NCBI RefSeq assembly: GCF_036365525.1
Contig: NC_090385.1
Span: 11,913,658 to 11,977,657 of the forward strand
Length of the DNA stretch: 64,000 bases
Direction: 5' to 3'
Source: Heterodontus francisci
Lineage: Eukaryota
This document shows positions 22,271 through 64,000 of this stretch, one piece after another. Every line of letters begins with the position of its first letter. The stretch's first letter is position 1. The notes below the pieces were generated by a model. It did not search any database. It was not told where the DNA came from and saw only the letters and a program-made list of their open reading frames with translations. Both the position numbers and the translations under genes were made by a program.

Positions 22271-22975
22271 GTTTAACATTCTTAATTTATATATACACCC
22301 AGTTTGAGAGAAAAATCGCTATTTCAAACAACAAAGTTTGCAACTGTTAATCATTTGCTGCTGTTAGTTTTCAAAACAATTTTACTTTTTCAAATTCTAA
22401 TAAATTAAACATGCAACTTTTTTTTTAACATCACTATTAGTTACCCAATTAAAAATTCACAAGTGGCAAAAGAGCTTGGATTCTCAACCAGAGATTTGTA
22501 TGTGATATTTGAGTCCCAGCCTCAGTAGTGATCCATCCTACCTGTCCTTATTGTCACAAGATAATTATGGATGAGTAAGGCCATTTGGCCCATCTTCATT
22601 CATCCATCGGAAAGACCATCATTGTGTACTGTCTCGTTAACGGATGGCGACTGTTGTGTTTATGCAGTAGATGGAATGGTTGGCTTATGGTATCACCTGG
22701 TCATCCTATCTTTCTGGCTGGAGAGACTGAGGTGAAGGAAATGGGAGAAAATGTTCAGCTGGGAGGAACTTTGCCATATCAATATCAATGTTTTGGAGCT
22801 ATCACTGTTGTATGTGTAGCTTAAGAAAAACTGGATTGGAATGGGGAGAGCTGCCAAAAAAAATCAAAGGATGAAGTTGGTCTTAATATCTTTTTTTTCA
22901 ACAAGGTTGCTGAGCTGCATTTAAGTGTTTAGTTATGATCCAAGTAAAAATTATTTCAGAAATAAGGGAGCTAAC

Positions 22976-23064
22976 GGCCGTGTGGTCTAATGGATAAGGC
23001 GTCTGACTTCGGTGTATTTCATGAGGTTATCAGAAGATTGTAGGTTCGAATCCTGCCACCGTCA
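22976..23064 (+). tRNA. tRNA-Arg(TCG) with 16-nt intron (23013-23028); possibly decaying
   Basis: GGCCGTGTGGTCTAATGGATAAGGCGTCTGACTTCGG[TGTATTTCATGAGGTT]ATCAGAAGATTGTAGGTTCGAATCCTGCCACCGTCA then TTTT. Full cloverleaf, A and B boxes, anticodon TCG at 23009-23011; C4:C69 mismatch and extra G:U pairs. Confidence 0.85.
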
Positions 23065-23068
23065 TTTT

Positions 23069-23410
23069 GGGGCAGCGCAGTGGTTAGCACCGCAGCCTCA
23101 CAGCTCCAGCGACCCGGGTTTGCTTCTGGGTACTGCCTGTGCGGAGTTTGCAAGTTCTCCCTGTGACTGCGTGGGTTTTTGCCGGGTGCTCCGGTTTCCT
23201 CCCACAGCCAAAGACTTGCAGGTAGATAGGTAAATTGGCCATTGTAAATTGCCCCTAGTTTTAGGTACGTGGTAGGAGAATTGAGGGAAGGTGGGGATGT
23301 AAGGTAATATGGGATTAATGTAGGATTAGTACAAATGGGTTGTTGTTGGTCAGCACAGACTCAGTGGGCCAAAGGGCCTGTTTCAGTGCTGTATCTCTCT
23401 ATGACTCTAA
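23069..23410 (+). mobile_element. HE1-like V-SINE directly after the tRNA-Arg terminator
   Basis: Near-identical to the 2926-3270 SINE; begins right after TTTT at 23065-23068. Confidence 0.85.
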
Positions 23411-23530
23411 ATAGAGGACATTGTGCTTTTTGCACAGTTGCTTACATAATGTGCAATACAGTAGCTTTCATTGAGCGAGGTTTTACAATCCCATAACTGA
23501 TTTTGCTTTTATTTCTTCCTGGCTGTTAAG

Positions 23531-23731
23531 GTAATAACTCTGAAGCGTCCAATGCCTCTGAGACTGAATCTGAGCACAGAGATGAGCTAAGTGATTGGTC
23601 ACTAGCGCCAACAGACGAAGAAAGGGAACCATATTCGCGCCGGGGTGACAGTCGCAGGCGGGGCAGTGCTGGGCGTGGCCGTGGTGGAGGCCGTGGCCGT
23701 GGGAGCAACAAAAATCCATCAACATCTTCGG
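23531..23731 (+). CDS. FMR1: FMR1 exon (human exon 15 equivalent), phospho-Ser region and RGG box
   Basis: gttaag|...TCGG|gtaaat; 201 nt, phase 1-1; [66 protein letters not shown]. Confidence 0.94.
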
Positions 23732-31639: not shown

Positions 31640-34600
31640 ACACCAGGACACTTAATGTGTCTTTGGCGACCAAGTGGGTAGGAAGTGCCTCCAGCTGCTT
31701 CAGCTCAAGCTCAGGATTTCTGAGCTTGAGAGGCATCTGGAGTCACTGCGGCGGATCAAGGAGCAGGAGAGTCTCCTGGATTATACTTTCCAGGAGGTGA
31801 TCACTTCACAGGCAGTAAGAGTTCAGGATACTAGGTCGGTGGCCACCCAGAAGACTAGAAACAGGCAGGAGGTGCAGAAGTCTTTGGCATGTGTGCCACT
31901 GTCAAGCAGGTACTCCACTTTGGAGACTGCTGGGAGTGACGATACCCTGAAGAAGTGCAATCCAGACCATGATGCCAATGGAGACCATGACGACAAGGGA
32001 CTGCACAACAGGGAATGGCACAACAGGGAACGGCAAAGTGTAGAAACATAGTTTTTATAGGGGATTCCTTAGGGGAACAGACAGGCATTTCTGTAACCAT
32101 CATTGTCATTCCCGCGTGGTGTGTTGCTTCCCTGGTGCCAGGGTAAAGGACATCACTGAATGAGTGCAGGAACGGGAGTGAGCCAGAAGTTGTGTTACAT
32201 GGTACCAACGACACAGCAAGTGATCATATCATTGAGGTCCTACAGTCAGATTTTCAGGAGCTAGTGGGAAAGTTAGAGTAGGATCTCGAAGGTAGTAATC
32301 TCTGCACTACTCCCACTGCCACGTACTAGCAAGAGTAGAAATAGGAAAATAGGGAGGGTCAATGCATGGCTTGAACCATGGTGCTGGAGGGAGGCTTCAG
32401 ATTCTTGGGACATTGGGGCCAGTTCTGGGGCAGAGGAACCTATTCAAAAGGAACAGGTTGCACCTCAACAGGGCTGGGACTAATGCCCTTGCAGGGAAGT
32501 TCATTAGTATGGTTGGGGAGGTTTTAAACTAAATTGGCAGGGGTATGGGCACCAGCATCTAGAAGTAAGAAAGAGGAATAAGGTTCATAATCTAAGTGTT
32601 GGACAGTACCAGAGAAGGGAGTAGTTCCATATTAGATAGGAGCAGACTGAGAAGGGCTAGGAGGAATGCAAAGACAGGAGTACAATGCATGTATGTAAAC
32701 ACAGTGTAGTGAATAAGGTTGGTGAGCTACAAGCACAAATAGCAGTATGGGAATATGATGTAGTGGCAATAATGGAAAGTGGCTTTAAAATTGTGAGGAC
32801 TAGGCACTTAATATACAAGGATAAGAAGTGTTCAGAAAAGATAGAGGAGAGAAAAAGGGAGGTGGGGTGGCAGTACTGATTAGGGAAAACATTGTAGTGT
32901 TGAACAGGGGGGGATGTCCTTGAGGGGGTAAGGACAGGATCCATTTAGTTAGAGTTGAGGAGCAAAAAGGGTATGATCATGCTACTGGGGTATTCTGTAG
33001 GCCTCCAAATATTGAGAGGGAAAGAGGAGCAAATCTGTAGGCAGATAGCAGAGATGTGCAAGAACTATGGAGTGGTGATTCTGGGGGACTTCTATTACCC
33101 AACTATCAATTGGGATGATCTTAGAATAAAGGGAGAGGGGGAAGAACTTCTGAAATGCGTTCAGGAGAACTTCCTTGGTCAGTATCTTCTCAGCCCAATT
33201 AGAAAGGAGGCATTGCTAGATTTGGTGCTGGGAAATGAGGTGAGCCAAGTGGACCAAGTGTCTGTGGGGGAACATTTAGGTAAGAGTGATCATATCATAT
33301 AAGGTTTAGACTTGCAGAAAAGCAAAGAACAATATAAGACTGAATGGCCAGATTGGAAGAGGGCTAATTTCAATGCAATGAGAAAGGATCTAGCCAAGAT
33401 AAAAATGGAACCAAAGACTGACAGGAAAAACTGTAACAGAACAATGGGTTATCTTCAGGGAGATGCTTCAGGTACTGGCTAGGTACATTCCAACAAGGGT
33501 TAAAGGTAAGGGAAGCAAAGCCAGACTCCTAGGGTGATGAGGGAGGTAGAGATTATGATGAAATTAAAAAAAGATGGTGTATGATGCTTGTGAGGTGAAT
33601 TGTTCGTGATAACCAGGCCAAATATAGTAAGCTGAGAGGGGAGGCGAAGAGGAAAATAAGGCTGGAAAAGAGAGAATATGAGAATAGAATGGCAGTTAAC
33701 ATAAAATGGAGCTCAAAGATCGAATGGTGTGCAAATAGTAAGTGGGTAGTCAGAGGTGGAGTGGGGCCTATTATGCTTAGAGGCACAGGGCAAGGTTAGA
33801 AAACTTAATGAGTACTTTGTATCAGTGTTTGCTAAGGAAAGGAATCTGACAAAAATATCGTTAGAAGCGGAGCGAGTAGAGGCAATGGATAGGGTACAAA
33901 TTGAGAGGGAGGAGATACTGGAAAAGCTGGTTAGGCTTAAGGTAGATAAGTTACCTGATCCTGATGGCTTGTATCGCAGGTTGCTAAAGGAAGTGGGGAT
34001 GGAAATAGTGGAATGGCTTGCCATAATCTAATTTTCCCTAGATACAGGGAAGCTGCCAGAGGATTGGAGAGTGGCAAATTCAAGAAATGATGAAAGGACT
34101 ATCCTAGCAACTGCAGGCCAGTTAGTTTAACATCGGTGGATAAGGTTTTAGAGACAATAATCGGGAAAAAATCAACAAGTTTGAGTTAATTACGGATAGC
34201 CAGCACAGATTTATAAAAGGCAGATTATGCTTGACTAATCTAATTGAATTTTCTGATGAAGTAACAGAAAAGGTCGATGAAGGGAATGCGGTGAATGTTA
34301 TCTATATGGATTTTAAGATAGCATTTGATAAAGTACCACATGAAAGGCTGGTTAACAAAACTGAGGCTCATGGAATAGGAGGGTCAGTGTCCAATGGGAA
34401 AAATTTGGCTTAAGGATGGAAAACAGCAAACTGTCGTAAATGGTTGCTTTTCAGACTGTTGGATGGTAGACAGTGGTGTTCCCCAAGGGACAGTGCTAGG
34501 ACTACTGGTTTTTTTGCTATATATAAATGACTTGGCTCTTATTATACTGAGTAGAATTTCAAAATTTGCCGATAATACCAAACTTGGAGGTGTGGCAAAC

Positions 34601-35440
34601 AGTGAGGATGATACGAACTGCCTGCAACAGGACATAGGCTAGCAGAATGGGCAGAGAGGTGGCAGATGGAATTTAATACAGCCAAGTGTGAGGTGATGCA
34701 TTTTGGCAGAAGGTATAGGGTGAGGCAATATTGACTTAATGGTGCAGTTCTAAAGAGTGTGCAGGAACAGAGGGACTTGGGGGTTCATGTGCGTTGATCC
34801 TAGAAGGTGGCAGGACATATTGAGAGAGTAATTAGCGAAGCATATGGGATCTTGGTTTCATAAATAGAGGCATAGAGCACAAAAGCAGGGAAGGTATGCT
34901 GAACCTTTATAAAGCTCCGGTTAGGCCCCAACTGGAGTACTGCATCCACGTCTGATCACCACACTTTCGGAAGGATGTGAGGGTCCTTGAGAGGGTGCAG
35001 AGGAGATTTACCAGAATGGTTCCAGGGATGGAGGATTTTAGTTACAAGGTTAGGTAACAAAGGAGATTAAGGGTGACTTGATAGATGTGTACAAGATTAT
35101 GACAGGCTTAGATAAGTTAGACAGAGACAAACGTTCTCATTTGCTGATGGTACAAGGACTAGGGGACACAGATTGAAGGTTTTGGCCAAGAGATGCTGCG
35201 GGATTGTGAGGAAGAACTTTTTACGCAGCAAGTGGTAATGACCTGGAACTCGCTGCCCACGAGGGTGGTGGAAGTGGAGACAATCAATGATTTCAAAAGG
35301 AAATTGGATGGACACTTGAAGGAAATAAGCTTGCAGAGCTACAGGGAACGGGTGGTGGGACTGACTAGATTGCTCTGCGGACTGCCAGCATGGACTCAAT
35401 GGGCCAAATGGCCTCCTATGCCATAAATGACTGAATCTAA
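31640..35440 (+). mobile_element. Near-full-length decayed CR1 LINE (ORF1 leucine zipper and esterase; ORF2 APE and RT)
   Basis: ORF1 RKCLQLLQLKLRISELERHL and a GDS esterase motif near 32060; APE motifs (YDVVAIMES, ILGDFYYP, LLDLVLGNE, LGKSDH); RT motifs (YMDFKIAFDKVPH, GVPQGTVLG, KFADNTKLGG); many stops and frameshifts. Confidence 0.9.
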
Positions 35441-36829
35441 GAGATACCCCATGAATTGTGATCACCATAAGTATCTCTGCAAAAACAGAACTTAACCTCT
35501 CTGACTTTTAGAGTTGCTCTTGTGCATTTTACTTGCCCATTAAACTCCCCAAAAAGTGAAGTCCAATAATTATCAGCATAAGCACCCTTTTAACGACGTG
35601 ATGATTGTTACTGACTGTCAATCAGCCTCTCTGGCCCAGAAAGTAAATAATTATAAGTGAGACGTCTCATTCATTTCTGCGGGTTGTGAATGGTTTTTGG
35701 AGATTTAAAAAATGTCTTTTAAAATTTATTTTCCTTTTTTCCTCTCACAATCTATTCTTTCTCAAGCCCTCTTTCTGTGCCTGATTTCACATTGAATTCA
35801 CCCCCCCTCCCCTTTTTGGTTCTTCATCTGTTTATTTCTCAACCTTTTAATCTCATTGGTTAACAGGATACACCGTTGGCCCCGTCATTCACCACGTCCC
35901 AGATGCCCCATTGCCCTTGCTGTGCCAATATCAGCTCACACTTACAGAAACTTAGTGGGCAAAGTTTTAAAACTTAAATGTTCAACAAGTCTAACAGGGA
36001 AGACCACAAGGTGCCACATTCCATCAAAATCTGGCCTCATTGAGTCTTTGCACACAATTCAAACTGGCGCAAGGTAAAATACTACACTGGTATTACTGAA
36101 TTCAAGTGTAAGTTAAATGATTTCATCTTGGCCACACAGAGGAGGTTGGAAGTTGTTGGGATGATGTAATATCACTTTTGGGGAAAATAGCAAATATATT
36201 CTCAGACTCATGACAATGTCCTCCAATAAATACAACAGGCTTCGGATTTAGATCTCCATTTCCTGTCACCAGTGTTACAATCAAAACCAAATAAAGGAAA
36301 AAGGTTAAGTTCTATCTAAAATGACGTGAAAACAGCAAAAATAGATCAATTCCTTTTATTCTAATGGCAACATATTCTGGAGATAGTGGACAGTGCTTTT
36401 GTTCTGACTGATGAACAAATTAAGGAAAAAATATGAAATTTTCTATGCAGTATATGCACTACCCAAACATAAGTGCTTGGGTGTTTATTAAAAGAAGGAT
36501 AACTAGTACAATAAGTTGCAACCAAGCTGCTGCTACATTAACTGGTGTGCAGAGCCAACACATAACTGAAAACAAATGTTATTGTGAATTGAGGCATGTG
36601 AAACCATCAGCTGTTTTAGATGTTTTGTTAATCCCAACAAAAGTATATTCGATGTGGCATTCAGAAATCTCACTGATATAAATTTTCACAATGTCTATCT
36701 AATTTGACTTTAATAACAATTGGTACAGTGCCTGTTGATAGCAAAACTCACCTAATGATGAGCTGCGTATAAAAACAGAATGCTAGAAATACTCAGCGGG
36801 TCTGGCAGCATCTGTGGAGGGAGAAGCAG

Positions 36830-36866
36830 AGTTAACGTTTCAGGTCAGTGACCGTTCATCAGAATT
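36830..36866 (-). ncRNA. Second hammerhead motif in the other pLTR
   Basis: Minus strand AATT-CTGATGA-ACGGTC(ACT)GACCT-GAAA-CGTT-AACT. Confidence 0.6.
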
Positions 36867-38274
36867 GGCAAAGGTTAGAAATGTAATAGGTTTTAAGCAA
36901 ATAAAGTGGGGGTGGGGCAAGAGGTAAAAGGGAAGGTGTCACAGAGAATAACTGACCAGAAGGTCATGGAGAAAAGGCAAACAGTATGTTAATGGTGTGC
37001 TGAAAGACAAAGCGTTAGTGCAGAGCAGGTGTTAATTGACAGAAAACTGAACAGCCTTGGCCAAAGCACAAACATCAAAAATAAGTGGGTAGGCACATGG
37101 TAAAAAAAAATGAATGATGAGACAAACTAAAATAAAAGAAAAAATAACTGAAAATAAAAAGGGGGGCCCATCATGCTCTGAAATTATTGAACTCAATGTT
37201 CAGTCCAGCAGGCTGTAGTGTGCCTAATCAGTAAATGAGGTCCTGTTACTCGAGCTTGCATTGATGTTCACTGGAACACTAGCAAGCCCAGGACAGATAT
37301 GTGGGCATGAGAGCGGGGGGAGTGTTGAAATGCAAGCAACTGGAAGTTGGGGTCATGCTTTCGGACTGAGCGGAGGTGTTCCGCAAAGCTGCGTTTGGTC
37401 TCCCCTATGTAGAGAAGACCACTTTGTGAGCAGCGAATACAGTATACTAAATTGAAAGAAGTACAAGTAAATCACTGCTTCACCTGAAAGGAGTGTTTAG
37501 GGCCTTGGATAGTGAGGAGAGAGGAGGTAAAAGTGCAGCTATTACACCTCCTGTGATTGCATGGGAAGGGGATGAGGTGTTGGAGGTAATGGAAGAATGG
37601 GCCAGAGTGTCGCGGAGGGAACTATCCCTTCGGAATGCTGACGGGAGGATGCATTTGGTAGTGGCATCACGCTGGACGTGGCGGAAACGGCAGAGGATAT
37701 CCTTTGGATGTGGAGGCTGGTGGGATGGAAAGTGAGGACATGGGGAACCCTGTCACGGTTCTGGGAGGGAGGGGAAGGGGTGAGGGTAGGGGTGCGAGAA
37801 ATGGGTCGGACACAGTTGAGGGCCCTGTCAACCACAGTGGGAGGGAATCCTCGGTTGAGGAAAAAGGAAGACATATCTGAAGCACTGTCGTGAAAGGTTG
37901 CATCATTAGAGCAGATGCATCGGAGACGGAGAAACTGGGAGAATGGAATGGAGTCCTTACAGGAGGCAGGGTGTGAAAAAGTGTAGTGGAGGTAGCTGTG
38001 GGAGTCGGTGGGCTTATAATAAATATTAGTAGACAGCCTATCCCTAGAGATGGAAACAAAGAAGTCGAGGAAGGGAAGGGAAGTGTCGGAGCTGGATCAT
38101 GTAAAGGTGAGAGAAGTGTAGAAATTGGAAACAAAGTTGATAAAGTTTTTCAGTTCGGGATGGGAGCAGGAAACAGCACCGATACAGTCATCAATGTACC
38201 GGAAAAAGAGTTGGGGGAGGGGGCCTGAGTGGGACTGGAACGAGGAATGTTTGACATATCCCACAAAAAGACAG

Positions 38275-38625
38275 GCAGCACAGTGGCACAATGGTTAGCA
38301 CTGCAGCCTCACAGCTCCAGTGACCCGGGTTCAGTTCTGGGTACTGCCTGTGCGGAACTTTGCAAGTTCTCCCTGTGACCGTGTGGGTTTCCGCCGGGTG
38401 CTCTGGTTTCCTCCCACAGCCAAAGACTTGCAGGTTGATAGGTAAATTGGCCATTGTAAATTGCCCCTAGTGTAGGTAGGTGGTAGGAGAATGGTGAGGA
38501 TGTGGTAGGGAATATGGGATTAATGTAGGATTAGTATAAATGAGTGGTTGTTGGGCAGCACAGACTTGGTGGGACGCAGGGCCTATTTCAGTGCTGTATC
38601 TCTAAATAAATAAAATTTAAAAAAA
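38275..38625 (+). mobile_element. HE1-like V-SINE nested in the Penelope element
   Basis: Same family sequence with an A-rich tail; interrupts the PLE RT region. Confidence 0.85.
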
Positions 38626-40313
38626 CTAGGAGCCATGCGGGCACCCATAGCAACCCCTTTTACTTGAAGGAAGTGAGTGGAGTTGAAGGAGAAGTTGTTC
38701 AGTGTGAGAACAAGTTCAGCCAGGCAGAGGCGGGTGGTGGTGGATGGGTCTGGTTGGGTCTCTGTTCAAGGAAGAAGCAAAGAGCCGTCAAACAGTCCTG
38801 GTGGGGGATGGAGGTGTAGAGAGATTGGATGTCCATAGTGAAGTGGCCAGGAAACTGGAAATTATTAAAATGACGTAGGGCGTCAGAAGAGTCACGGATG
38901 TAGGTGGGAAGCAATTGGACCAGGGGAGTTAAGATAGGAATAAATAAGTTCAGTGGGGCAGGAACAGGCTGAGACAATGGGTCTGCCAGGACAGTCCTGT
39001 TTGTGGATTTTAGGAAGGAGGTGGAAGCCGGATGTCCGGGGTTGTGGGACTATCAGGTTGGAAGCTGTAGAGGGAAGATCTCCAGAGGAGATGAGGTTAA
39101 TGACCAAACTGTGGACAGTAACTTGATGTTCGGTGGTGGAGTCATGATCCAGGGGGAGGTAGGAAGTAGTGTCTGAGAGTTGGCGCTGAGCCTCTGCAAG
39201 GTAGAGGTCGGTACACCAGACAACAACAGCACCACCCTTGTCTGCAGGTTTAATAACAATGTCAGGGTTAGACCTGAGAGAACGGAGTGCAGCAAGTTCA
39301 GAGGGAGACAGGTTAGAGTGAGTGAGGGGGGGCAGAGAAATTGAAATGGCCGATGTCTCACCAACAGTTTTCAATGAAAAGATCAAGAGTGCGTAATAGG
39401 CCAGAGGGAGGGGTCCAGGTGGAGGGAGAATGCTGGAGGCGGGTGAATGGGTCTGCTGGTAGGGGGGAGGAGTCCTGATCAAAGAAGTGAGCCCGGAGGC
39501 GAAGGCGACGGAAGAAGAGCTCAGCATCATGCCAAGTGCGAAATTCATTGAGGTGGGGGCGTAAGGGGATAAAACTGAGTGCTGAGTACAGAAAGTTCAG
39601 CATCAGAGAGGGGAAGCTCAGAGGCTATAGTGAATACACGGCAAAGGGTCAGATCAGAATGGTTGGGGTCAGAGGGAAGTGACGGGGAAGAAGGATCTGG
39701 AGGGGCATTAGTCCCCATCAGCTGCTGGAGTTTGTGTTCCTTAACACCTGAAAGTTTTGTTAATGCGTCAGATAAGACAAAGGATGAAATGAAACCTCGG
39801 AGTAGAACAGCTGAGATAAGGTGAGGCAGTGCTTCTGGAGAGAGAGGTCCAGTGTGTACATGTGGCGATGCATGGCACTGAGTGTGGATCTCAGGATGTG
39901 TCAAGAACAGCAATCCGAGGAACGTTGTATTTCTCGGAGATACCTATAGCCCTGGGTGGATTCAAAACATGAAGGATGAAACTTCAGTTGGAATCCACGT
40001 AGAATAAGTCGGAACCGGAAACAATCACTGAGGAAGGAAATGTGGCTGTGAAAAGGGTTTTGGTAGACAATCTATCGAACACCAGGAGGGAAATAGAACG
40101 CAATGAAGGTGAACAAGGTAAAAGAGACAAACGAAAATCCCATCAAAGAGAAGAGCAGAACTTCTTCAAGATAGGCATTCCTGGAAGAGAAGTGGCAGTG
40201 AATTAAACACTAAAATAAAAGCAAAATACTTCAGATGCTGGAAATCTGAAATATAAACAAGCAATGCTGGAAATGCACTGCAGGTCTGGCAGCATCTGTG
40301 GAGAGAGAAGCAG

Positions 40314-40349
40314 AGTTAACGTTTCAGGTCAGTGACCTTTCATCAGAAC
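40314..40349 (-). ncRNA. Minimal type I hammerhead ribozyme motif in Penelope pLTR
   Basis: Minus strand GTT-CTGATGA-A-AGGTC(ACT)GACCT-GAAA-C-GTT-AAC: intact core, stem II, palindromic loop-less stem III, short stem I. Confidence 0.65.
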
Positions 40350-40619
40350 AGGCAAAGGTTAGAAATGTAATAGGTTTTAAGCAAATAAAGCGGGGATGGG
40401 GCAAGAGATAACAAAAGGGAAGGTGTGGATAGGACAGAGGGTCACAGAGAAGAACTGACCAGAAGGTCATGGAGCAAAGGCAAATGGTGTGCTGAAAGAC
40501 AAAGCGTCAGTGCAGAGAGGGTGTTAATTGACAGAAAAATGAACAGTCCTGGCCCAAAGCACAAACATGATTAAAAAAAAATCAATGGGCAAGCATATGG
40601 TTTAAAAAAATGAATAATC

Positions 40620-40910
40620 GAGCCACATGAGATATTAGGACAAATGACCGAGAGCTTCATCAAAGAGGTTATAAGGATCATTTTAAAAAAGGAAAGTAGT
40701 AGAAATGCAGAGAAGTTTAGGGAGGAGATTTCAGGACTTAGGGGCCTAGGCAGCTGATGGCACGGCCGCCAATGGTGGAACAATTAAAATCAGGGATGCT
40801 CAAGAGGCCAGAATTGGAGGAGCACAGGAATCCAAGGGTTGTAGTACTGGATGAGGTTACAGAGACAGGGTGGAGACAGGCCATGGAAACATTTGAAAAC
40901 AAAGATGTGA
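40620..40910 (-). mobile_element. L2 LINE 3' fragment
   Basis: Reverse-complement homology to 4680-4860 (LCSSNSGLLSIP...STIGGRAISCLGP). Confidence 0.7.
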
Positions 40911-41009
40911 ATTCCACAGCAACTAATTTCCTAAGTTTTGCTCTGAAGGATTGACACACCCAACCTCATGCTGCTCCACCCAAATATAGCACAGGCTCCC
41001 ATGCTGCCT

Positions 41010-41580
41010 TTTTTAATTAATTTATGGGATGGGAGCATCACCGGCAAGGGCGGCATTTATTGCCCATCCCTAATTGCCCTTGAAAAGGTGGTGGTGAGCT
41101 GCCTTCTTGAACTGCTGCAGTCCATGTGGTGTAGGTACACCCACAGGAGAGAGTTCCAGGTTTTGACCCAGCGATAGAAAAGGAACGGCGATAGAGTTCC
41201 AAGTTGGGATAGTGTGTGGCCTGAAGGGGAACTTGCAGGTGGCGGTGTTCCCATACGTCTGCTGCCCTTGTCCTTCTAGATAGTAGAGGTTGCGGTTTTG
41301 GAAGGTGCTGTCGAAAGAGGCATGGTGAGTGGCTGCAGTGCATCTAGTATATGGTACACACTGCTGCCACTGTGCGCTGGTGGTGGAAGGAGTGCATGTT
41401 GAAGGTGGTGGATGGGGTGCCAATCAAGTGGGCTGCTTTGTCTTGGATGGTGTTGAGCTTCTTGTTGGTGTATTCCATCACACACCTGACATGTGCCTTG
41501 TAGATGGTGGACAGACTTTGGGGAGTCAGGAGGTGAGTTACTCACCGCAGAATTCCCAGCCTCTGACCTGCACTTGTAGG
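41010..41580 (-). mobile_element. CR1/L2-superclade LINE 3' fragment
   Basis: Same 3' sequence as 18590-18900 and 54236-54800. Confidence 0.8.
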
Positions 41581-43734
41581 ACTGGGGGGGGGGGGGGGGG
41601 TGGGGAGGGGGAGGCGCTGAGGATGGAAGAGCAATTTAAATGGTGTAGGCTGAAGACAAGGGCTTGACTGTTTCCTGATCACTCACTCATTCGTTCGATG
41701 GACTGCTTCATCGTTCAGTATCCAAAATGAATAGTACTTTTACCTGAAGTGTCTTGATTTCCTCAGCCAGGGTGGTGAAGTGGAGCTGGTGCTGACATCA
41801 AGCAAGACACAGAATTAAGGAGCATGGAATTGGGAGAGATCATTCGATGAAAATGCAGTAATTGAAAGGGCATAAGAAGTAAATAACACAATAAGGTTCA
41901 GAGATCACTGGAGTGATTGAGAAAGCTTCGGGAATAACAGGAGAAAAGCATAGTTTAATTGAGAGAGCAAAAGTAAATGACTAGTCAGAAAAATAAGTCT
42001 TGGTTTTCACCCATAGTCGATGGGCTACAAACTTAGCCAATGGAGAAGTAGACAAGGAGTAACAGAAACACAGCAAGAAAGTGTTGAAATTTCCTGTCTG
42101 CTACAGCTAATTTTCTCTTATTACCTCTTTGTACTTTGGCGAGAAGCAAAGTGGAATTTGAACCACAGAGACACCCCCAACAGCCGAAGGAGAAGTTTTG
42201 AGAGGAAAGCACAGATAAAGGAGGAAGTCAATGGTTCTATCGACCTCATAAAAACCAGAATTGCGGTAACGTCCCGTCTGAATCTCACCGGAACCGATGG
42301 ATGAGTAAAGAAATTTCTCATTTCAGTGCTTCAGAGACAGCAAAGTGCAGTCATGGTAAAGCTTGGAAGTACAGCAGCCAATGTGCAAACAGCAAGGTAC
42401 TACAAACAACAATCCTTCTGCTTTGGTTGTGTCAGTATCACAGACTAACATCCTTATTCCTCCAACAGGCTGAAGAGGCAGGTCCCTGAGTCTATCGCAG
42501 GAATTGAACCTGTGTTGTTGGGTGTTATTTTGGACTAGAGGCTAACCATCCAGCTAACCAGCCCCAATGCAGCAAGTGATTTAGTGATGTTGGTTGAGGA
42601 ACAAATCGTCATCAGAATACTGGGGAGATCTCCTCTGCTCTTCTTCGAAATACTGCAGGGGCATCTTTTTATGGCACCTCTGGCAGTGCAGCCTTGCCTT
42701 GGGACTGCACTGAAGTGTCAGTCAGGATTATGTGCTCAAATATCTGAGATTTGAGCCTAAAATCTCCTGACTCAGGTGAGAGTATAACCCACTGAGCCAT
42801 GGCTGGCACCAATAAATAATCTCGCTGTCATTTATTGATTGCATTCAATCTTGTCTCCAAAATTAGATGTTAAGTCTCACTCATTTGCAAGAAAAACTAT
42901 GACCTATTTTGAAGCATTGGATGCTAAAAAAAACAATTTAAAATGGTTCAAACCGTGTTGTAACCTGTGTCAGTCTTTGGGATCCCTTCTCTCATTCAGA
43001 GTGAAATGATGGTGGAAGGTTCGACTGAGGTTCCCAGCGTTAAATTATCATTATTATGGAGAGGCGGTGCAGGTTAAAATATCACGTGCTTATGTTTCCG
43101 AAGTTCATATCAATGTATTTAGACGGGAGGAAATAGTGAGGCAACGTGTCATTATAGACCTGTGATTTGTGTTTCTTGCGTTCTGGAATTTTAAAGTAGC
43201 GATTGAGCATAAACTGCGACCAGGTCTAGACATGTGTGTTTATGAATGGAGAACAGAATAGTTTTAGTGGTTGCTGTGATCTATATTGCACTAGTGTTTC
43301 ATCGTTTGCATTGCGGGTAAGTCGATGGGAGAGTTGGTGAGTTTTGCGTTCAACTCTCTGCTCTTGCTCTAACCTTGAAGGGAATGGTCTTCACCGTCAC
43401 TTTAGGTTATTGTGAGGTCACTCGGTGACTTGGGGGTGAAAGCAGAGCGTATCCAAAACTGGGACTGACTTTTGCAACCATTAAACAGGGATTCTAACTT
43501 CATTTGATTCAGGCATAAGGCATTCGGAGAATTACCCACACGATTCTGATGCCTGGAGACCCAAGATCATTCCAATGAAGGGTAGCTGATTCCTGGAAAG
43601 TTGTGAAGATGCAGGACATTTCAGGTGGGTGTGTTTAGAGGTAAATGTGAGTTGAATGAGAGCAATTAGACTGCACAGTAAGTGGAGTTTTGGTGAGAGT
43701 CACATTTTAAAGTACAGCACTGTCAGTATCTAGT

Positions 43735-49779: not shown

Positions 49780-52060
49780 GCAGGAGTAGACCATATCACC
49801 CATCGAGTCAGCTCTGCCATTCAGTACGATCATGGCTGACCTTAGGATTCAACTTCACTTTCCCACCTGCTCGCCATATCCCTTGATTTTCTGAGACACC
49901 AAAAATCTGTCTGTCCCAGCTTTAAATCTATTCAACGATGGAGCATCCAAAACCCTCTGGGGTAGGGAATTCCAAAGATTCACCACCTTTTGAGTGAAGT
50001 AATTTCTCCTCATCTCAGTCCTAAATGGTCAGGCCCTTAACCTGAAACTTGTGCCCGTGTTTTATATTCCCCAACCAGCAGATTAATCTGTGTCTACCCT
50101 ATTCAGCCCCTTTAGAATCTTATGTTTCAATGAAATCACCTCTCATTCTTCTAAACTCCAGAGAATACAGGCCCAATTTATTTAGCTTCTCATCTTAAGA
50201 AAACCTCCTCATCCCAGAGACCAATCTAATGAACCTTTGCTGCACTACCTCCAATGCAATATCTTCTCTTAAATGTGGAGACCAAAACACACAGTATTCC
50301 AGATGTTGTCTCACCAAAACCCTGTACAATTGTAGCAATACTTCCTTATTCCTGTACTCCAATCCCCTTGCAATAAAGGACAACATGCCATTTGCCTTCC
50401 TAATTGCTTGCTGTACAAGCATGTTAACTTTCTGCATTCCTTGTATAAGCACACCCAAATTTCTTTGAACATTAACACTTACAAACTTCACACTTTAAAA
50501 AAAAAATTCTACTTTTCTATTCTTACCAGAGTGCATCTGCCATCTTGTTGCTCACTCACTTAATTTGTCTGTATCTCTTTGCAGCCTCTCTGTATCCTCC
50601 CCACAGCTTACCTTTCCACCTACCTTTGTATCATCAGCAAACGTAGATACATTACTCTCTGTATCTTCATCTAAGTTATAGATTGTAAATAGCTGAGGCC
50701 CCAGCACGGATCCTTGCTGCACCCCACTATTTACTGCCTGCCAACTTGAAAATGCCCTGTTTATGCTTCCTGTCTGTTAAACAATCATGTACCCACAATC
50801 CACAAGCCCTTACCTTGCCAATTAACCTTTTGCGGGGCATCTTATGGAGTGCCATTTAGAAATCCAGGTATACAACAAAGGTTCCCCTTTATCTACTCTA
50901 CTAGTTATATAATCTAAAACTTCTAAGACATTTGTCAAACACGATTTCCCTTTAGTAAAACCACATTGACTTGTTCTAATCATACTATTCTTTTCTAAGT
51001 GCATTGTTAAGACTTCCTTAATAATAGATTCCAGCATTTTCCCAACGACTGATGTTAGGCTAACTGGCCTGGAGTTCATGGTTTTCTCTCTCTCCCTCCT
51101 TTCTTGAAAAGTGGTGTAACATTTGCCAACTTCCAATCTGATGGGACCCGAATCCAAGGAATTTTGGAAAATCGTTGCTCATGCATTTACTATCTCTGCA
51201 GCTACCTCTTTTAGAATCCTAGGCTGCAGGCCATCAGGTCCTGAAGATGTGTCAGATTTTAGTCCCTTAAGTTTCTCCAATACATTTTCTCTGCGGATAT
51301 GAATTTCCTTAATGTCCTCTCTTTAGCCCCGAGGTTACTATTTCTGGTATGGAACTTGTGTCTTCTACGGTGAAGACAGACAAAATATTTGTTCAATGCC
51401 TTTGCCATTTCTTCATACTCCATGAAAATTTCTCCTGTCTCTGCTTCTAAAGGGACCAACATTTACTTTAGCTACTCTCTTCCTTTTGATATACCTATAA
51501 AAGCTCTTACAATCTGTTTATATTGCTGGCTAGTTTACTTACATTCTATTTTTTCCTTTATCAACTTTTTGGTGGCCGTTGGTTGGTTTCTAAAACACTC
51601 CCAATCCTCAGACTTGCTACGCTTTTTTTTTTCCAAATTATTAAGCCTGTTCTTTAAATCGAATAGTATGAGTGGGCCACAAATGGGTCTTTCTGGCTAA
51701 GGTTTTGTGTTTCAAAAGGATTATATTTTTGTTAAACATTTTGAATTGTTTCTTTAAAGGTTTCCCACTGTTAATTTACCAGCATACCTTTTAGTCTAAT
51801 TACCTGATTTACCTTAGCCAGTTCTTCCCTCATGCCTACGTAATTGGCTTTGTTTAAGTTTAAGATTCTTGTTTGTGATTGGAGCAAGTCACTTTCAAAC
51901 TTAACATGGAATTCAATGGTATTATGAATCACTGTTTTACTGTGACATTGCTAATTAACCCTGCTTCATTACACAATACTAGATCTAAGATAGCTTTATC
52001 CCTAGTTTGTTCCACAATGTATTGCTCCTAGAAAATGTCCCAAAAATCTTTCCACAAACT
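49780..52060 (-). mobile_element. Decayed CR1 LINE (RT half)
   Basis: ORFs with RPVSLTSVVGKMLESII, KGKSCLTN and KANGMLSFIARGLEY..KEVLLQLYRVLVR.HLEYC. Confidence 0.88.
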
Positions 52061-52869
52061 CTAGGCCACCCCTACCTTTTTGCTTCTCAACTCCAATCCT
52101 GTCCTTGCCCCTTCATTATGATCCTTTTTCCAACATTACAATGTCTTCCTTAATCAGTACTGCCACCCTGCCTTTTTTCCCCTTCCCTATCTTGTCTGAA
52201 CACTATATCCTTGAATATTAGGTGCCCAGTCCTTGCCATTTTTAAATCATGGTTCCGTTATTGCCACAACATCTATTCCCACACAGCTATTTGTGCAGCA
52301 CCTGATCCTTCAATTAGGCACTCGCCAGCCTTGCGGACTGAACATTGAGTTCAATAACTTCAGAGCATGACTGGTCTTTTTTGTATTTTATATATATTTT
52401 TTTTAAATTTTATTTTTTGTCACCTGTTTTTAATGCTGCTCATTATTCTGCTGTTAACAATCTCTCTGGACTAATGCTTTGTCAGTAGCTCAGGCAGCAT
52501 CTGCTGAGAGATAAGCAGAGTTAACATTACAGCCCTGTGACCTTTCATCAGAGCTGACAAAGGTTAGAAAAGAATTAGGTTTTAAGCAAGTGAAGGGGTG
52601 GTGTGGGGGCGGAGTGCGGGTGGTGAGGAAGAGAACAAAAAGGAAAAAAGGTTTGAGATAGGGCAGAGGGCAGGAGAATAAATAACAAAGCTGTCCTGGG
52701 ACAAAGGCAAAGAGTGTGTTGATGCTGGTGGTGAAAGACAAGCATTAGTCCAGAGAGAGTATTAATGGCAGAACAAGCAGCTCTGTCCACAAGAAAAACA
52801 GGCACATGGTTAAAAAATACAAGCAAAGAAAAAAAATTTTTTTTTTTTTTTTTTTAAATTAAAAGGCCA

Positions 52870-55800
52870 GTCATCAAGCCACTGTCTCCAGGACTGTCAC
52901 TGACTTAATTGCATCTGGAGATCTTCCCTCTACAGCTTCCAAACTCAGTCCCGCAACCCTGGACAACCTGCATCTACCTCCTTCCCAAAATCCACAAATG
53001 AGACGGTCCTGGCAGACCCATCGTTTCAGACTGTTCCTGCCCCACTGAACTTACTTCTTCCTACCTTGACTTTGTCTTTTCTCCCCTGGTCCAGTCTCTT
53101 CCCACCTACATCCGTGACTCTTATGACACCCTACGTCATTTTGACTCTTTCCAGTTTCCCGGTCCTAATCGCCTCATCTACATAACCTCTCTACACCTCC
53201 ATCCCCCACCAGGACAGTCTGAAGGCTCTCTGCTACTTCCTTGAACAGAAGCCCAACCAACCACCACCCTCCTCCGCCTGGCTGAACCTGTTCTTACATT
53301 GAACAATTTCTCCTTCAACTCCACTCACTTCCTTCAAATAAAAGATGTTGCAGGAGTCCTAGTTATGCTTGACTTTTTATAGGATATTTCAAACATTCCT
53401 TGTTCCAGTCCTACTCAGGCCCCCTCCCCCAACTCTTTTTCCAGTACATTGATGACTATCGATGCTGCTTCCTGCTTTTGTCCTGAACTGGAAAACTTCA
53501 TCAACTTTGCTCCTAATTTCCACACTTCTCTCAACTCACATGGTCTATCTCCGACACGTCCCTTCCACAACTTCTCTGTCTGCATCTCTGGGGATAGGCT
53601 GTTCACTAATATTCATCATAAGCCCGCCAAATTGTACAGCTACCTCGACTACACTTTAGTTTAGTTTAGAGATACAGCACTGAAACTTCCTCACACCCTG
53701 CCTCCTGTCAGGACTGCATCCCATTCTCTCAGTTTCTCCATCTCCAAGGCAAATGTCCTGATGATGCAACTTTCCACAACAGCACTTCTGACAATGTCTT
53801 CCTTTTTCTGCAACCGAGGATTTTTGCCCACTGTGGTTGACAGGGCCTTCAATAGTGTCCAACCTATTTTCCACACTTCTGCCTTCACCCCTTCTCTCCC
53901 TCCCAGAACTGAGACAGGGTGCCCCCTGTCCTCACTTTCCACCCCACCACCTCCAAAGGATCATCCTCCGCCATCTCCAATGTGATGCCACCAAACACAT
54001 CTTCCCTTCCCTGGTTACCATTCTGAAGGAATTGTTCCCTCAGTGATAGCCTGGTCCACTCTTCCATCACCCCTGACACCTTGTCCCTTTCCCACAGCAC
54101 CTTTCCATGCAATCACAGGAGGTGTAATACCTGCCCTTTTACATCCTCTCTCCTCACCATCCAAGGCCCCAAATACTCCTTCCAGGTGAAGCAGCAATTT
54201 ACTTGTACTTTCTTCAATTTAGTGTACTTTTCTTCTTTAATTAATTCATGGGATGTGGGCATCATGGGCTAGGACAGCATTTATTGCCCATCCCCAATTG
54301 CCCTTGAGAAGGTAGTGAGCCACCTTCTTGACCTGCTGCAGTCCATGTGGTGTAGGGTACACCCACAGTGCTGTTAGGAAGGGAGTTCTAGGATTTTGAC
54401 CCAGCGACAGTGAAGGAATGGCGATGTAGTTCCAAGTCAGGATGGTGTGTAACTTGGAGGGGAACTTGCAGATGGTGGTGTTCCCATACATTTTCTGCCC
54501 TCGTCCTTCTAGGTGGTAGAGGATGCGGGTTTGGAAGGTGCTGTCTAAGGAGCCTTGGTGCGTTGCTGTAGTGTCTTGTAGATGGTACACACTGCTGCCA
54601 CTGTGCATCGGTGGTGGAGGGAGTGATTGTTTGTGGATGGGGTGCCAATCAAGTGGGCTGCTTTGTCCTGGATGGCGTTGAGCTTCTTGTGTTGTTGGAG
54701 CTGCACCCATCCGGGCAAGTGGAGAATATTCCATCACACTCCTGACTTGTGCCTTTAGATGGTGGACAGACTTTGGGGGAGACAGGTGGTGAGTTACTCT
54801 TCACAGGACTCCTAGCCTGGTAGCCACAGTATTTATATGGCACTCCAGTTCAGTTTCTTGTCAATGGCAAGCCCCAGGATGTTGACAGTGGGGGATTCAG
54901 CAAGGGTAATGCCATTGAATGTCAAGGAGAGATGGTTAGTTTCTCTCTTGTTTGAGATAGTCATTGCCTGGCACTTGTGTGGCACGAATGTTACTTACCA
55001 CTTATCAGCCCAAGCCTGGATATTGTCCGGGCTGCATTTCTACACGAACTGCTTCAGTATTGGAGTCATCGCGAATTGTGCAGTCATCTGCAAACATCCT
55101 CACTTCTGACCTTATGATTTAAGGAAGGTCATTGATGAAGCAGCTGAGGATGGTTGGGCCTAGGGCACTGCCCTGAGGAACTCCTGCAGTGATGTCCTGG
55201 AGCTGAGATGAATGACCTCCAACAAACACAACCATCTTCCTTTGCGCTCGGTATGACTCCAACCAGCAAATTGTTTTCCCCGATTCCCATTGTCTCCAGT
55301 TTTGCTCGGGCTCCTTGTATGCCATACTGGGTGAAATGCTGCCTTGATGTCAAGGGCAGTCACTCGCACCTCACCTCTTGAGTTCAGCTCTTTTGTCCAT
55401 GTTTGAACTAAGGCTGTAATGAGGTCAGGAGCTGAGTGGCCCTGGCGGAACCCAAACTGAGAGTCACTGAACAGGTTATTGATATGCAAGTTCCGCTTGA
55501 TGGCACTGATGACATCACATTACTGATGATTGAGAATAGACTGATGGGGAGGTAATTGGCCAGGTTGAATTTGTCCTGCTTTGTGTACAGGGCATACCTG
55601 GCCAATTTTCCACATTGCTGGGTAGATGCCAATGTTGTAGCTGTACTGAAACAGCTTGGCTAGGGCGCTGCAAGTTCTGGAGCACAGGTCTTCAGTGTTG
55701 TCAGGGCCCATAGTCTCTGCAGTATCCAGTGCCTTCAGCCATTTCTTGATATCATGTAGAGTGAATCATATTCGCTGAAGACGGACATCTGTAATGCTGG

Positions 55801-57680
55801 GGACTTTAGGAGGAGGTTGAGATGGATCACCCACTTGGCACTTCTGGCTGAAGATTGTTGCAAATGCTTCAGCCTTATCTTCTGCACTGATGTGCTGGGC
55901 TCCCCCATCATTGAAGGTGGGGATATTTGGGGAGCCTCCTCCAGTTAGTTGTTTAATTGACTCCCACCATTCACTACTGGATGTGGCAGGACTGCAGAGC
56001 TTAGATCTGATCTGTTGGTAGTGGGATTGCTTAGCTCTGTCTATCACATGCTGCTTATGCTGTTTGGCATTCAAGTAGTCCTGGGTTGTAGCTTTACCAG
56101 GTTGACACCTCATTGAGGGATGCCTGGTGCTGCTCCTGGCATGGCCTCCTGCACTCTTCATTGCACCAGGGTTGATCCCCCAGCTTGATGAGCATGAGGT
56201 TACAGATTGTGGTTGAATACAATTCTGCTGCTGATGACCCACAGCGCCTCATGGATGCCTAGTTGAGTTGCTAGATCTGTTCAAAGTCCATCCCATTTAG
56301 CAGGGTGATAGCGCTGCACAACACGATGGAGGGTATCCTCAATGTGAAGACAGAACGTCATCTCTACAAGGATTGTGCGATGGTCACTCCTACCAATACT
56401 GCCATGGACAGATGCATCTGCAACAGGCAAATTGGGGAGGACAAAGGTCAAGTCTGTTTTTCCCTCACCACCTGCCGCAGACACAGGCTAGCAGCTATGT
56501 CCTTTATGACTCAGCCAGCTTGGTCAGTAATGGTGCTACGAGCCACTCTTGAAGTCTGCACCCTTGCCACCTTCTGTGCTTCCTCCAAGTGGTGTTCAAC
56601 ATGGAGTACTGACTCATCATCTGAGCAGGGGGTTTGTGAGGGAGGGGGTGGTAGGTTGTAGGTGATATTCTTCAGGAGGTTTCCTTGTCCATGTTTGACC
56701 TGATGCCATGAGACTTCATGGGGGCCGGATTCAATGTTGAGGACTCCCAGGGCAACTCCCTTCTGACTGTACCACTGTGCCGCCACCTCTGCTGGTGGTG
56801 TCCTGCTGGTGGGATAGGACATACCCAGGGATGGTGATGGCAGTGCCTGGGACATTGTCTGCAAGATATGATTCTGCGAGTATAACTATGTCAGGCTTGA
56901 CTAACCTGTGGGACAGCTCTCCCAACTTTGGCACAAGCCCCCAGATGTTAGTAAGGAGGACTTTGCAGGGTCGAAAGGGCTGGGTTTGCCATGGTCATTT
57001 CCGGTGCCTAAGTGCCCACTACAAGGCAGTCTCCTCTACATTTGGGAGACCAAATGCAGATTGGGTGACCGGTTTGCGGAACACCTCCGCTCAGTCAGAA
57101 AGCATATCCCCGAGCTTCTGGTTGCTGGCCATTCCAATACACCCCCTCTGCTCTCATGCCCACATTTCTGACCATGGCCTGCTGCAGTGTTCCAGGGAAC
57201 ATCAACGCAAGCTCGAGGAGCAGCACCTCCTGTTTCGATTAGGCACTGTACAGTCTTGTGATCTCAACCTTGAGTTCAACAATTTCAGGCATGACTGGCT
57301 TTTTTTTTGCATAATTTTTTTTTAATTATTTTTTTTTTTTATAAATGTGCCTGTTTTGTCATCTAGACATAGCTTTTCATTACTCTACTAGTAACTATCT
57401 CTCTGGACTAATGCTTTGTCTTTCACCACAAGCATTAACAGTCTTTGCCTTTGTCCCACGACAGCTTTGTTATTCAATCTCTCCTGCCCTCTGCCCTATT
57501 ACACACTTTCCCCTTTTGTTCTCTTCCTCACCAACCCCTCCACCACTTCACTTGCCTAAAAACTAATTCTTATCTAGCCTTTGCCAGTTTGATGAAAGGT
57601 CACAGACCTGAAACATTAACCATTTCTCTCTCCACAGATGCTGCCTGACCTGCTGAGTATTTCCAGCACTATTTTTGTTA
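52870..57680 (+). mobile_element. Penelope-like element (RT, GIY-YIG, pLTR) interrupted by a LINE
   Basis: LPKIHK and FQYIDD RT fragments at 52970-53460; GIY-YIG LLYI.ETK.RLGDRFAEHLRSVRK resumes near 57030; pLTR at 57380-57680. Confidence 0.8.
54236..57010 (-). mobile_element. Long CR1/L2-superclade LINE copy (APE and RT), decayed
   Basis: APE motifs (KPDIVILAESYL, IGRSDH) and RT motifs (QFGFRQGHSA, VTALDIKAAF, GVPQGSALGP..F..FINDLP). Confidence 0.85.
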
Positions 57681-57979
57681 CGTAGATTTCCTTTATCAAG
57701 CTTTTTGTCATTAGTACATGAGCTACAATAATGCAGCCCGTCTTCACAACAAAGCAAGGAAGCAGGGTTATGGCATCATCAGGAATTTTCCTGTTTCCAG
57801 ACTTGATTGAGGTTCATCAACATTCTCAATATTTATGGCCTTGGGGCACCCCAAAGTTCTTTGCAGTCAATGAAGTACTTTTTGAAGAGTCATTACTGTA
57901 ATGTAGAAAGTGTGGTGGCCAACTTGCTGATAGCAATCTCTCCCAAAGAGCAATGAGATAAATTACCAGATAACCAGAT

Positions 57980-58660: not shown

Positions 58661-58729
58661 CAGACAATGTAATCATTTAGCTTCTCAGCCATTTCTCTAT
58701 TCCCCATTACAAATTCTCCTGACTACTTG

Positions 58730-60348: not shown

Positions 60349-60349
60349 C

Positions 60350-63690: not shown

Positions 63691-64000
63691 CCCTTCATCA
63701 GTATCCAACTCGAGTATCCAGTTCATAAAACACTATACTTCTGATTTTACTTTTGATAGGAAGTGACAACGTTAAGGCCATACCTTGTTTCCTCTTTGGT
63801 AGAAATGTAACCCGTGTCCACATATCTACTTCCTGCTTCCACTGGTCATAGGGTTCAGAGAACATCAGAGGGTAATAATACCCTGACAATTTCCACTTGC
63901 TTTCTGACATATTTTCCACAATAGCCAGTGAGATTTTAGTTTTCTATGTAAAAAAAAAAATTCCTAGTTTCCAACCTTCAGCTTTAGGCAACCATTCTCT
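63691..64000 (-). mobile_element. 5' gag of a second copia element of the same family (host of the nested insertion)
   Basis: ORF 63698-63919 (YDQWKQEVDMWTRVTFLPKRKQGMAL) is paralogous to 62977-63324; PBS-like AACCATTCTCT at the window edge. Confidence 0.8.

What the first reader, a model, noticed from the sequence alone, without database searches (positions are those of the whole stretch)
22976..23068. Intron-containing tRNA-Arg(TCG) gene inside an FMR1 intron
Seen: a complete Arg-TCG cloverleaf with a 16-nt insert exactly at position 37/38. The insert has the hallmarks of a TSEN-spliced intron. Its antepenultimate G (23026) can pair with C32 (the A-I pair), and intronic TGAGG can pair across the anticodon loop CTTCG. 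A TTTT Pol III terminator follows. Established: human intron-bearing tRNAs are essentially Arg-TCT, Ile-TAT, Leu-CAA and Tyr-GTA, and human Arg-TCG genes are intronless. Inference: this is an intron-bearing isodecoder class absent from humans (a possible tricRNA source), lying sense within FMR1 between the exon 14 and 15 equivalents. The C4:C69 mismatch suggests this copy may be decaying.
Basis: partly seen in the sequence, partly recalled or inferred. Interest (0 to 1): 0.7.

Follow-up and report, generated by a model that had tools for sequence, protein, structure and literature searches.

The report
Unspliced tRNA copy riding a SINE
This arginine-tRNA sequence with its intron still in place is likely a dead copy that a shark jumping element carried into the gene by accident, but it comes from a real family of hundreds of intron-bearing Arg-TCG tRNA genes, a kind not described for humans, whose splicing is still untested.

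Summary
In detail: a tRNA-Arg(TCG) at 22976-23064 has a 16-nt insert at 37/38, an A-I pair and TTTT. The genome holds 137 exact-core intron-bearing copies (525 by a looser motif), mostly in amplified tRNA/histone cluster units, against 2 intronless Arg-TCG genes. The window copy is one of 9 distinct dispersed leader-tRNA-intron-T-run-SINE units with unrelated flanks. A general motif found 25 of 40 hits (20 independent loci, 11 amino acids) with the same build. All 9 intron-class loci among the 20 kept their introns, and several units split an older repeat. So this copy is most likely a decaying retrocopy of a nascent pre-tRNA, fused to a SINE during reverse transcription; the FMR1-family intron is an incidental landing site. 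The intron class looks real (A-I base covaries; intron-bearing Pro genes also exist), but splicing was not tested and cluster copies show no excess conservation. It resembles known U6-SINE chimeras; this scan noted a similar Arg-TCT/LINE chimera in another genome.

The parts
22968..22975 (+). [quoted passage not shown]
   Evidence: homology to class B cluster genes stops at -8; further upstream is unique
22976..23012 (+). tRNA-Arg(TCG) 5' exon with A box; anticodon 23009-23011
23013..23028 (+). 16-nt canonical-position (37/38) intron; G23026 is the A-I partner of C32
   Evidence: (G at -3 in 69 of 71 copies)
23029..23064 (+). tRNA 3' exon with intact B box; C69 breaks pair 4:69; discriminator A73, no CCA
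23065..23068 (+). TTTT Pol III terminator = 3' end of the captured pre-tRNA and the fusion joint
   Evidence: sequence; same joint in other chimeras
23069..23413 (+). Near full-length tRNA-derived shark SINE (HE1/V-SINE type by recall), 8-nt deletion near its 5' end, LINE-type tail from 23386; 3' end approximate
22271..23530 (+). Host intron of the FMR1/FXR-family gene (landing site)

Best explanation
The tRNA-plus-SINE unit at 22968-23413 is likely a single, now decaying retrotransposition product: a nascent unspliced pre-tRNA-Arg(UCG) fused to the front of a full-length SINE. Inferred steps: (1) a cluster gene of the intron-bearing Arg-TCG family was transcribed by Pol III in the germ line, from about -8 to its TTTT. 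(2) The partner LINE's reverse transcriptase, which in CR1/L2-type systems needs its own 3' tail, copied a SINE RNA at a nick in this intron. (3) At the SINE's 5' end it likely jumped onto the 3' oligo-U end of the pre-tRNA and copied through intron and leader. (4) The insert has since drifted without visible selection. Shown: the structure, its recurrence with many tRNAs and several SINE subfamilies, and that such units split older repeats. The source family is a real genomic class of several hundred copies whose intron is likely TSEN-type; that it is spliced and decodes CGA is inferred, not shown.
For: (a) Nine distinct dispersed Arg-TCG(intron)+SINE units share homology only from the leader or +1 to the SINE tail; their flanks are unrelated. 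(b) Five carry a clear 6-9-nt match to cluster-gene leaders (window copy 7/8), two a partial match, two start at +1; different leader variants match different cluster sub-variants. (c) Joints differ: at the T-run in 7, and about 100-115 nt into the cluster gene's own 3' flank in L078 and L079. (d) A generic B-box..TTT..SINE-start motif gave 40 hits (reverse control 0). Of these, 25 are tRNA+trailer+T-run+SINE (20 independent loci, 11 amino acids); 9 of 9 intron-class loci (Arg-TCG 4, Pro 4, Tyr 1) kept the intron; none shows an added CCA; some are 5'-truncated. (e) An older repeat continues across the whole unit with a 0-8-nt gap in 5 of 20 units tested and in Arg unit L080 (gap 4, 8-bp duplication). 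In L108 and L007 an older reading frame appears to continue on both sides (motifs recognised by recall). (f) The SINE halves of Arg units are not one clade (0 of 200 bootstrap trees; 4-5 changes) and mix with solo SINEs. (g) Decay: tRNA halves differ 56/794 (7.1%) from their majority, against a mean SINE branch of 4.2%; 0 of 10 dispersed copies pass all structure checks. (h) Precedent: U6 fused to L2-mobilised SINEs in platypus and lizard (PMC4476161).
Against: For the window copy itself there is no convincing target-site duplication, no repeat in its flanks to show continuity and no empty orthologous site (one search had almost no intronic cover). Its A box, B box and TTTT are intact and it has only 3 differences in 89 nt, so it could still be transcribed. 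Template jumping cannot be told from RNA ligation by sequence alone. The starred branches of the SINE tree force only 2 changes. The reverse-pattern control does not model chance next to an abundant SINE: 15 of 40 hits were not tRNAs.
Confidence: 0.82

Rival explanations
1. One reading: a resident, possibly fading, tRNA gene of the FMR1 intron, with a SINE that later landed behind it by chance or by targeting tRNA terminators.
For: Intact A box, B box, T4 and anticodon arm; Rfam 50.7 bits; only 3 differences from the majority of dispersed copies.
Against: Leader homology ends at -8. The same junction recurs at 20 independent loci, some 5'-truncated. Whole units interrupt older repeats. Cluster genes of class B, Pro, Thr, Met and Arg-TCT examined are not followed by the SINE, so terminators in general are not targeted.
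Confidence: 0.06
2. A composite master: a SINE inserted once behind the T4 of a cluster gene (class A, present in many copies), and read-through transcripts spread as a dimeric SINE.
For: 38 inspected cluster copies have tRNA+TTTT+SINE and share T50 and the intron type with the dispersed units; T4 is a weak terminator (general knowledge).
Against: Class A SINE halves form their own clade (100/98) that contains none of the dispersed units. Class A keeps at most ~5-6 nt of the leader that dispersed units carry. Two joints lie elsewhere. The same build occurs with 10 other amino acids. Class A looks like one such chimera that landed in the cluster unit and was amplified with it.
Confidence: 0.08
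3. Same product, but joined at the RNA level by RtcB before retrotransposition, as shown for human U6/L1.
For: RtcB acts in tRNA splicing and joins U6 to L1 RNA (PMC6789731, passages); the orientation is sense and the joint is at the U-tract.
Against: That reaction needs a 2',3'-cyclic phosphate and a 5'-OH. A nascent pre-tRNA ends in UUU-OH and an intact SINE RNA starts with a triphosphate (general knowledge). The SINEs here are joined at their natural 5' end, though my motif selects for that.
Confidence: 0.12
4. About the source family: the intron-bearing Arg-TCG copies are a largely dead, passively amplified array. They are transcribed but not a working spliced tRNA class, and the two intronless genes do the decoding.
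For: Cluster tRNA bodies are not better conserved than their flanks (class B: exon free positions 47/989 = 4.8%, upstream 300 nt 2.1%, downstream 2.4%). Only 26 of 61 cluster copies pass all checks, in a sample biased to good matches. Neighbouring tRNAs and an H2A-like frame look decayed. No spliced copy of this isodecoder was found within 2 mismatches. Two clean intronless genes exist (L031 70.1 bits; L073).
Against: The insert sits exactly at 37/38 in 100 of 100 listed copies. The -3 base is G opposite C32 in 69 of 71 Arg copies, but A opposite U32 in four unrelated Pro intron types (5 of 5 loci; 81 of 93 listed by eye). The intron base facing G36 varies T/C in 70 of 71. A divergence peak over the gene and its first 60 nt upstream (5.8%) fits transcription-associated mutagenesis (PMC6130373, search listing only). 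Inherited retrocopies imply germ-line transcription.
Confidence: 0.3

Closest known systems
U6-SINE and U6-L2 chimeric retrocopies of platypus (Mon-1) and lizard (AnolisSINE2) (Doucet et al. 2015, PMC4476161; passages read)
   Same: A Pol III RNA ending in a U-run is fused in sense to the 5' side of an element mobilised by a 'stringent' L2/CR1-type LINE; short or no target duplications; template switching proposed.
   Different: The passenger here is a whole unspliced pre-tRNA with leader and trailer, from at least 11 amino-acid types, joined to the natural 5' end of the SINE; the host is a cartilaginous fish, not covered in that table.
Human tRNA/LINE-1 chimeras (PMC13174262; passages read)
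   Same: tRNA sequence and retroelement are inserted in one event.
   Different: Those are mostly tRNA halves in antisense (21 loci, twin priming proposed); these are full precursors in sense, on a SINE.
Pre-tRNA (tailless) retropseudogenes of mammals (Schmitz et al. 2004, seen only as cited in PMC4476161)
   Same: Retrocopies of unprocessed pre-tRNA, implying capture in the nucleus.
   Different: L1-driven and tailless; here the SINE supplies the required 3' tail.
Canonical TSEN-spliced vertebrate tRNA families Tyr-GUA, Ile-UAU, Arg-UCU, Leu-CAA (PMC10275265, PMC10485636; passages read)
   Same: Intron at 37/38, short, A-I pair, anticodon-intron helix; mixed intron-bearing and intronless members as in Arg-UCU.
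   Different: The anticodon is UCG on an Arg-TCG body (5 differences from the intronless gene L031), not a switched Arg-TCT gene; hundreds of copies in arrays; Pro-TGG/CGG/AGG also carry introns here.
HE1 V-SINE of sharks and rays with partner LINE HER1 (table row in PMC3747384)
   Same: tRNA-derived head, LINE-like tail, very abundant in a shark-like genome.
   Different: The name is recalled; no reference sequence could be compared.

Membership tests
TSEN-spliced eukaryotic pre-tRNA | Intron one base 3' of the anticodon (37/38) | tested here: met
   16-nt insert at this position in 100 of 100 listed copies
TSEN-spliced eukaryotic pre-tRNA | A-I pair between base 32 and the antepenultimate intron base, with a 3' bulge | tested here: met
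   C32:G in 69 of 71; MFE fold with 3-nt bulge; U32:A in Pro introns
TSEN-spliced eukaryotic pre-tRNA | Intact mature-domain cloverleaf | tested here: inconclusive
   window copy breaks 4:69; 26 of 61 cluster copies pass all checks
TSEN-spliced eukaryotic pre-tRNA | Intron excised in vivo; spliced, CCA-bearing tRNA | not testable with these tools
Functional tRNA gene at this locus | Conserved body and native upstream flank | tested here: not met
   native flank ends at -8; dispersed copies diverge 7.1%, 0 of 10 fully intact
Small-RNA/retroelement chimeric retrocopy | Pol III RNA joined in sense to a retroelement that has its 3' tail | tested here: met
Small-RNA/retroelement chimeric retrocopy | Inserted as one unit (target duplication or interrupted target) | tested here: inconclusive
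   not shown for the window copy; shown for L080 and 5 other-tRNA units
Small-RNA/retroelement chimeric retrocopy | Recurrent independent formation | tested here: met
   different joints, SINE subfamilies and tRNAs
Dimeric SINE family with one master | Monophyletic, self-propagating composite | tested here: not met
   0 of 200 bootstrap trees group the Arg units' SINE halves; only 9 distinct dispersed units found
HE1 / V-SINE | Conserved central V-domain and HER1-shared tail | not testable with these tools
   no repeat library; Ogiwara 2002 not held; label recalled

The most novel reading that the evidence does not exclude
Cartilaginous fish keep a wider TSEN repertoire than mammals: large cluster arrays of intron-bearing Arg-TCG and Pro genes are transcribed and spliced in the germ line, beside a few intronless genes. 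Their SINE reverse transcriptase routinely captures nascent pre-tRNAs, leaving a fossil library that maps start sites and terminators of germ-line Pol III transcripts, favours slow-maturing intron-bearing precursors (9 of 20 loci), and shows SINE head-swapping in the act.
Probability: 0.35. Interest if true: 0.65.

Novelty: new variant of a known kind. Interest (0 to 1): 0.45.

Why it matters
The set of spliced tRNA families is usually given as four for human and mouse. Hundreds of intron-bearing Arg-TCG and Pro genes in a shark-like genome would show that this set has changed within vertebrates, and would give new natural TSEN substrates and possible tricRNA sources. The pre-tRNA-SINE fusions are direct examples of the template-switch step proposed for the birth of SINE heads, and serve as inherited records of which tRNA genes were transcribed in the germ line. 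The FMR1 position itself has no evident significance.

Tried and rejected
ARAGORN without intron mode found nothing in the window and mis-called loci; with -i in a script it called Arg(tcg) i16. Whole-gene MFE z-score was uninformative (0.48). Anticodon switch from the intron-bearing Arg-TCT family was rejected: the body matches the intronless Arg-TCG gene, and the cluster Arg-TCT gene and intron are unrelated. A splicing test on reads was not possible. Laying the SINE and downstream flank (4 of 20 runs) confirmed the exon and SINE abundance but gave almost no intronic cover, so no empty site. An attempt to identify the genes beside the two intronless tRNAs from ORFs was uninformative. A full-gene count of intact copies was not obtained. 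The test for purifying selection on cluster copies was negative. Literature: 10 searches found no report of intron-bearing Arg-TCG/Pro genes in fish, nor of pre-tRNA-SINE chimeras in sharks. PMC13343379, PMC5499810, PMC8450103 and the zebrafish tRNA preprint 10.1101/2024.01.30.575011 (term finds) had nothing on this.

Full report
Observation. The window holds one Rfam hit, a tRNA at 22976-23064 (50.7 bits). Compared with an intronless Arg-TCG gene of the same genome (L031), it has a 16-nt insert at 23013-23028, exactly at 37/38. G23026 faces C32, and the MFE fold gives the anticodon-intron helix with a 3-nt bulge. C4:C69 is the only broken pair. TTTT follows at 23065-23068. The host intron (22271-23530) lies between two exons hitting Pfam FXMRP1_C_core (RNA contigs match 23529-23731); FMR1 rather than FXR1/2 is by recall. 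Directly after the TTTT begins a ~340-nt SINE that has five further long copies in the window and very deep matches in RNA contigs. I call it HE1-type by recall; PMC3747384 lists HE1 as the shark and ray V-SINE with partner LINE HER1 (table passage). 'Shark' is inferred from this and from earlier AI notes on the genome, not from a call that names it.

The family. The window lies in G000 (6.0 Gb). An exact core pattern with a 6-30-nt gap gave 137 matches; the 100 listed all have a 16-nt insert of one intron family. A 19-mer across the intron 3' end gave 525 matches at one mismatch, control 2; the 30 fetched, all exact matches, are intron-bearing copies. The intronless core gave 1 exact match and 3 at two mismatches: L031, a second Arg-TCG gene with a compensated anticodon stem (L073) and an Arg-ACG gene. 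Most intron-bearing copies sit in long near-identical units on C35, C28, C50 and small contigs, among other tRNA genes and histone stem-loops. Among 71 distinct gap-free copies, 23 are class B (cluster gene, own flanks, no SINE), 38 are class A (cluster copy followed by a decayed SINE) and 10 are dispersed (9 after merging one duplicate). This sample is biased towards good matches.

Is the intron real? It is always at 37/38. The -3 base is G in 69 of 71 copies, and the base facing G36 is T or C in 70 of 71, while neighbouring intron positions vary more. The same clusters hold intron-bearing Pro genes: 176 core matches, of the 100 listed 7 intronless and 93 with 15-20-nt inserts. Pro has U32, and four unrelated Pro intron types have A at -3 (5 of 5 fetched loci; 81 of 93 listed, counted by eye). 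This swap is what the A-I rule predicts (PMC10485636, PMC10275265; passages). Against a strongly selected family: class B exon positions not fixed by my pattern differ at 47 of 989 (4.8%), the intron at 7.9%, the 300 nt upstream at 2.1%, the first 60 nt upstream at 5.8% and the 300 nt downstream at 2.4%; class A is similar. Only 10 of 23 class B and 16 of 38 class A copies pass all structure checks. Neighbouring tRNAs and an H2A-like frame look decayed, and no spliced copy of this isodecoder turned up. The divergence peak on the gene fits transcription-associated mutagenesis (PMC6130373, listing only) with weak selection per copy, but also a mostly dead array. Splicing could not be tested. Lineage-specific gain and loss of tRNA introns is known in yeasts (PMC4090602, section 18 part 1 read). 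The reviews name four intron families for human, and my 10 searches found no report for fish, but GtRNAdb and the main review could not be seen.

What the window copy is. Its homology to other copies runs from -8 to the SINE tail and no further. Eight other dispersed Arg units (C1, C2, C5, C7, C15, C18, C19, C32) have the same build with unrelated flanks. Five of the nine carry a clear 6-9-nt match to class B leaders, in variants matching different cluster sub-variants; two match partly; two start at +1. Seven are joined at the T-run; L078 and L079 run about 100-115 nt into the class B 3' flank before the SINE. A generic motif (B box, T-run, SINE start) gave 40 hits. I examined all 40 (20 of them also by Rfam, 11 with a tRNA hit). 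Twenty-five are tRNA-trailer-T-run-SINE: Arg 5, Pro 9, Ala 2, Lys 2, and one each of Ser, His, Glu, Val, Asp, Tyr, Phe. Ser, His, Phe and the eight Pro rows were identified by eye. The other 15 are SINE-SINE joins (6), another SINE's head (2) or chance (7). Merging duplicates leaves 20 loci. All 9 loci of intron-bearing classes kept the intron, none shows an added CCA, and some are 5'-truncated. These are marks of nascent Pol III transcripts copied by reverse transcription.

One insertion, formed repeatedly. In 5 of 20 units tested an older repeat continues across the whole tRNA+SINE with a gap of 0-8 nt. With relaxed thresholds the Arg unit L080 does too (gap 4, plus an 8-bp duplication), and in L108 and L007 an older reading frame appears on both sides (motifs recognised by recall). 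The window copy has unique flanks and no clear duplication, so for it this is inference from its siblings. In a tree of 76 SINE copies the halves of the 9 Arg units never form one clade (0 of 200 bootstraps; starred branches force at least 2 changes) and mix with solo SINEs; class A forms its own clade without them. The tRNA halves differ from their majority at 56 of 794 sites (7.1%; window copy 3 of 89), against a mean SINE terminal branch of 4.2%. These two measures are not strictly comparable, but there is no sign of protection.

Mechanism. Shown: structure, recurrence, polyphyly and interrupted targets. Inferred: a stringent CR1/L2-type reverse transcriptase primes on the SINE tail, reaches the SINE 5' end and jumps to the oligo-U end of a pre-tRNA, as proposed for U6 fused to Mon-1 and AnolisSINE2 (PMC4476161, passages). 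RtcB ligation, shown for human U6/L1, needs a cyclic phosphate and a 5'-OH (PMC6789731, passages), which these ends would normally lack. Human tRNA/L1 chimeras differ in being mostly antisense halves (PMC13174262, passages). An unreviewed note of this scan describes an unspliced Arg-TCT fused to a LINE tail in another shark genome (e1-9869652); I did not check it.

Verdict. This copy is most likely a passenger retrocopy and FMR1 an incidental site (0.82). The intron-bearing Arg-TCG class, with Pro, is real as DNA and likely a true TSEN class (about 0.7), of unproven function. New variant of known kinds; interest 0.45.

Noticed in passing
L034:8216-8304 (+), L145-L149; Intron-bearing tRNA-Pro genes: TGG in the clusters (several intron types), CGG, and a clean single Pro-AGG on C27 with a 20-nt intron and a strong T-run; -3 base A opposite U32.
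   Followed up: partly
L031:1482-1554 and L073: Only two intronless Arg-TCG genes found; L073 has a compensated anticodon-stem pair. This mirrors the mammalian Arg-UCU set of intron-bearing plus one intronless gene; tissue use unknown.
   Followed up: partly
L032-L041 (C35, C334, C1402): Large amplified units with tRNA genes every few kb, histone 3' stem-loops and a decayed H2A-like frame; many tRNAs carry damaging changes, suggesting a birth-and-death tRNA/histone array spread over many contigs.
   Followed up: partly
L094, about 16-110 nt after the TTTT of class B genes: The class B 3' flank resembles (68-87% over 30-98 nt) a dispersed old repeat, by recall a LINE 3' tail; class B may itself descend from an old pre-tRNA-LINE-tail chimera.
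   Followed up: partly
L158-L159 (C39:16.898-16.909 Mb): A Pro(intron)+SINE chimera tandemly duplicated five times in two alternating variants.
   Followed up: no
L110, L114, L122, L128-L130, L134-L135: Heads of a second SINE family, and 5' pieces of the same SINE, fused in front of full SINE copies, some twice in a row; possibly the same template-jumping process.
   Followed up: no
L007 (C32): The chimera there interrupts what looks like an LTR/retroviral RNase H reading frame (motif recalled); observed only.
   Followed up: no
window 32000-42000 and 50000-64000: Strong GC and AT skew, positive then negative; not examined.
   Followed up: no
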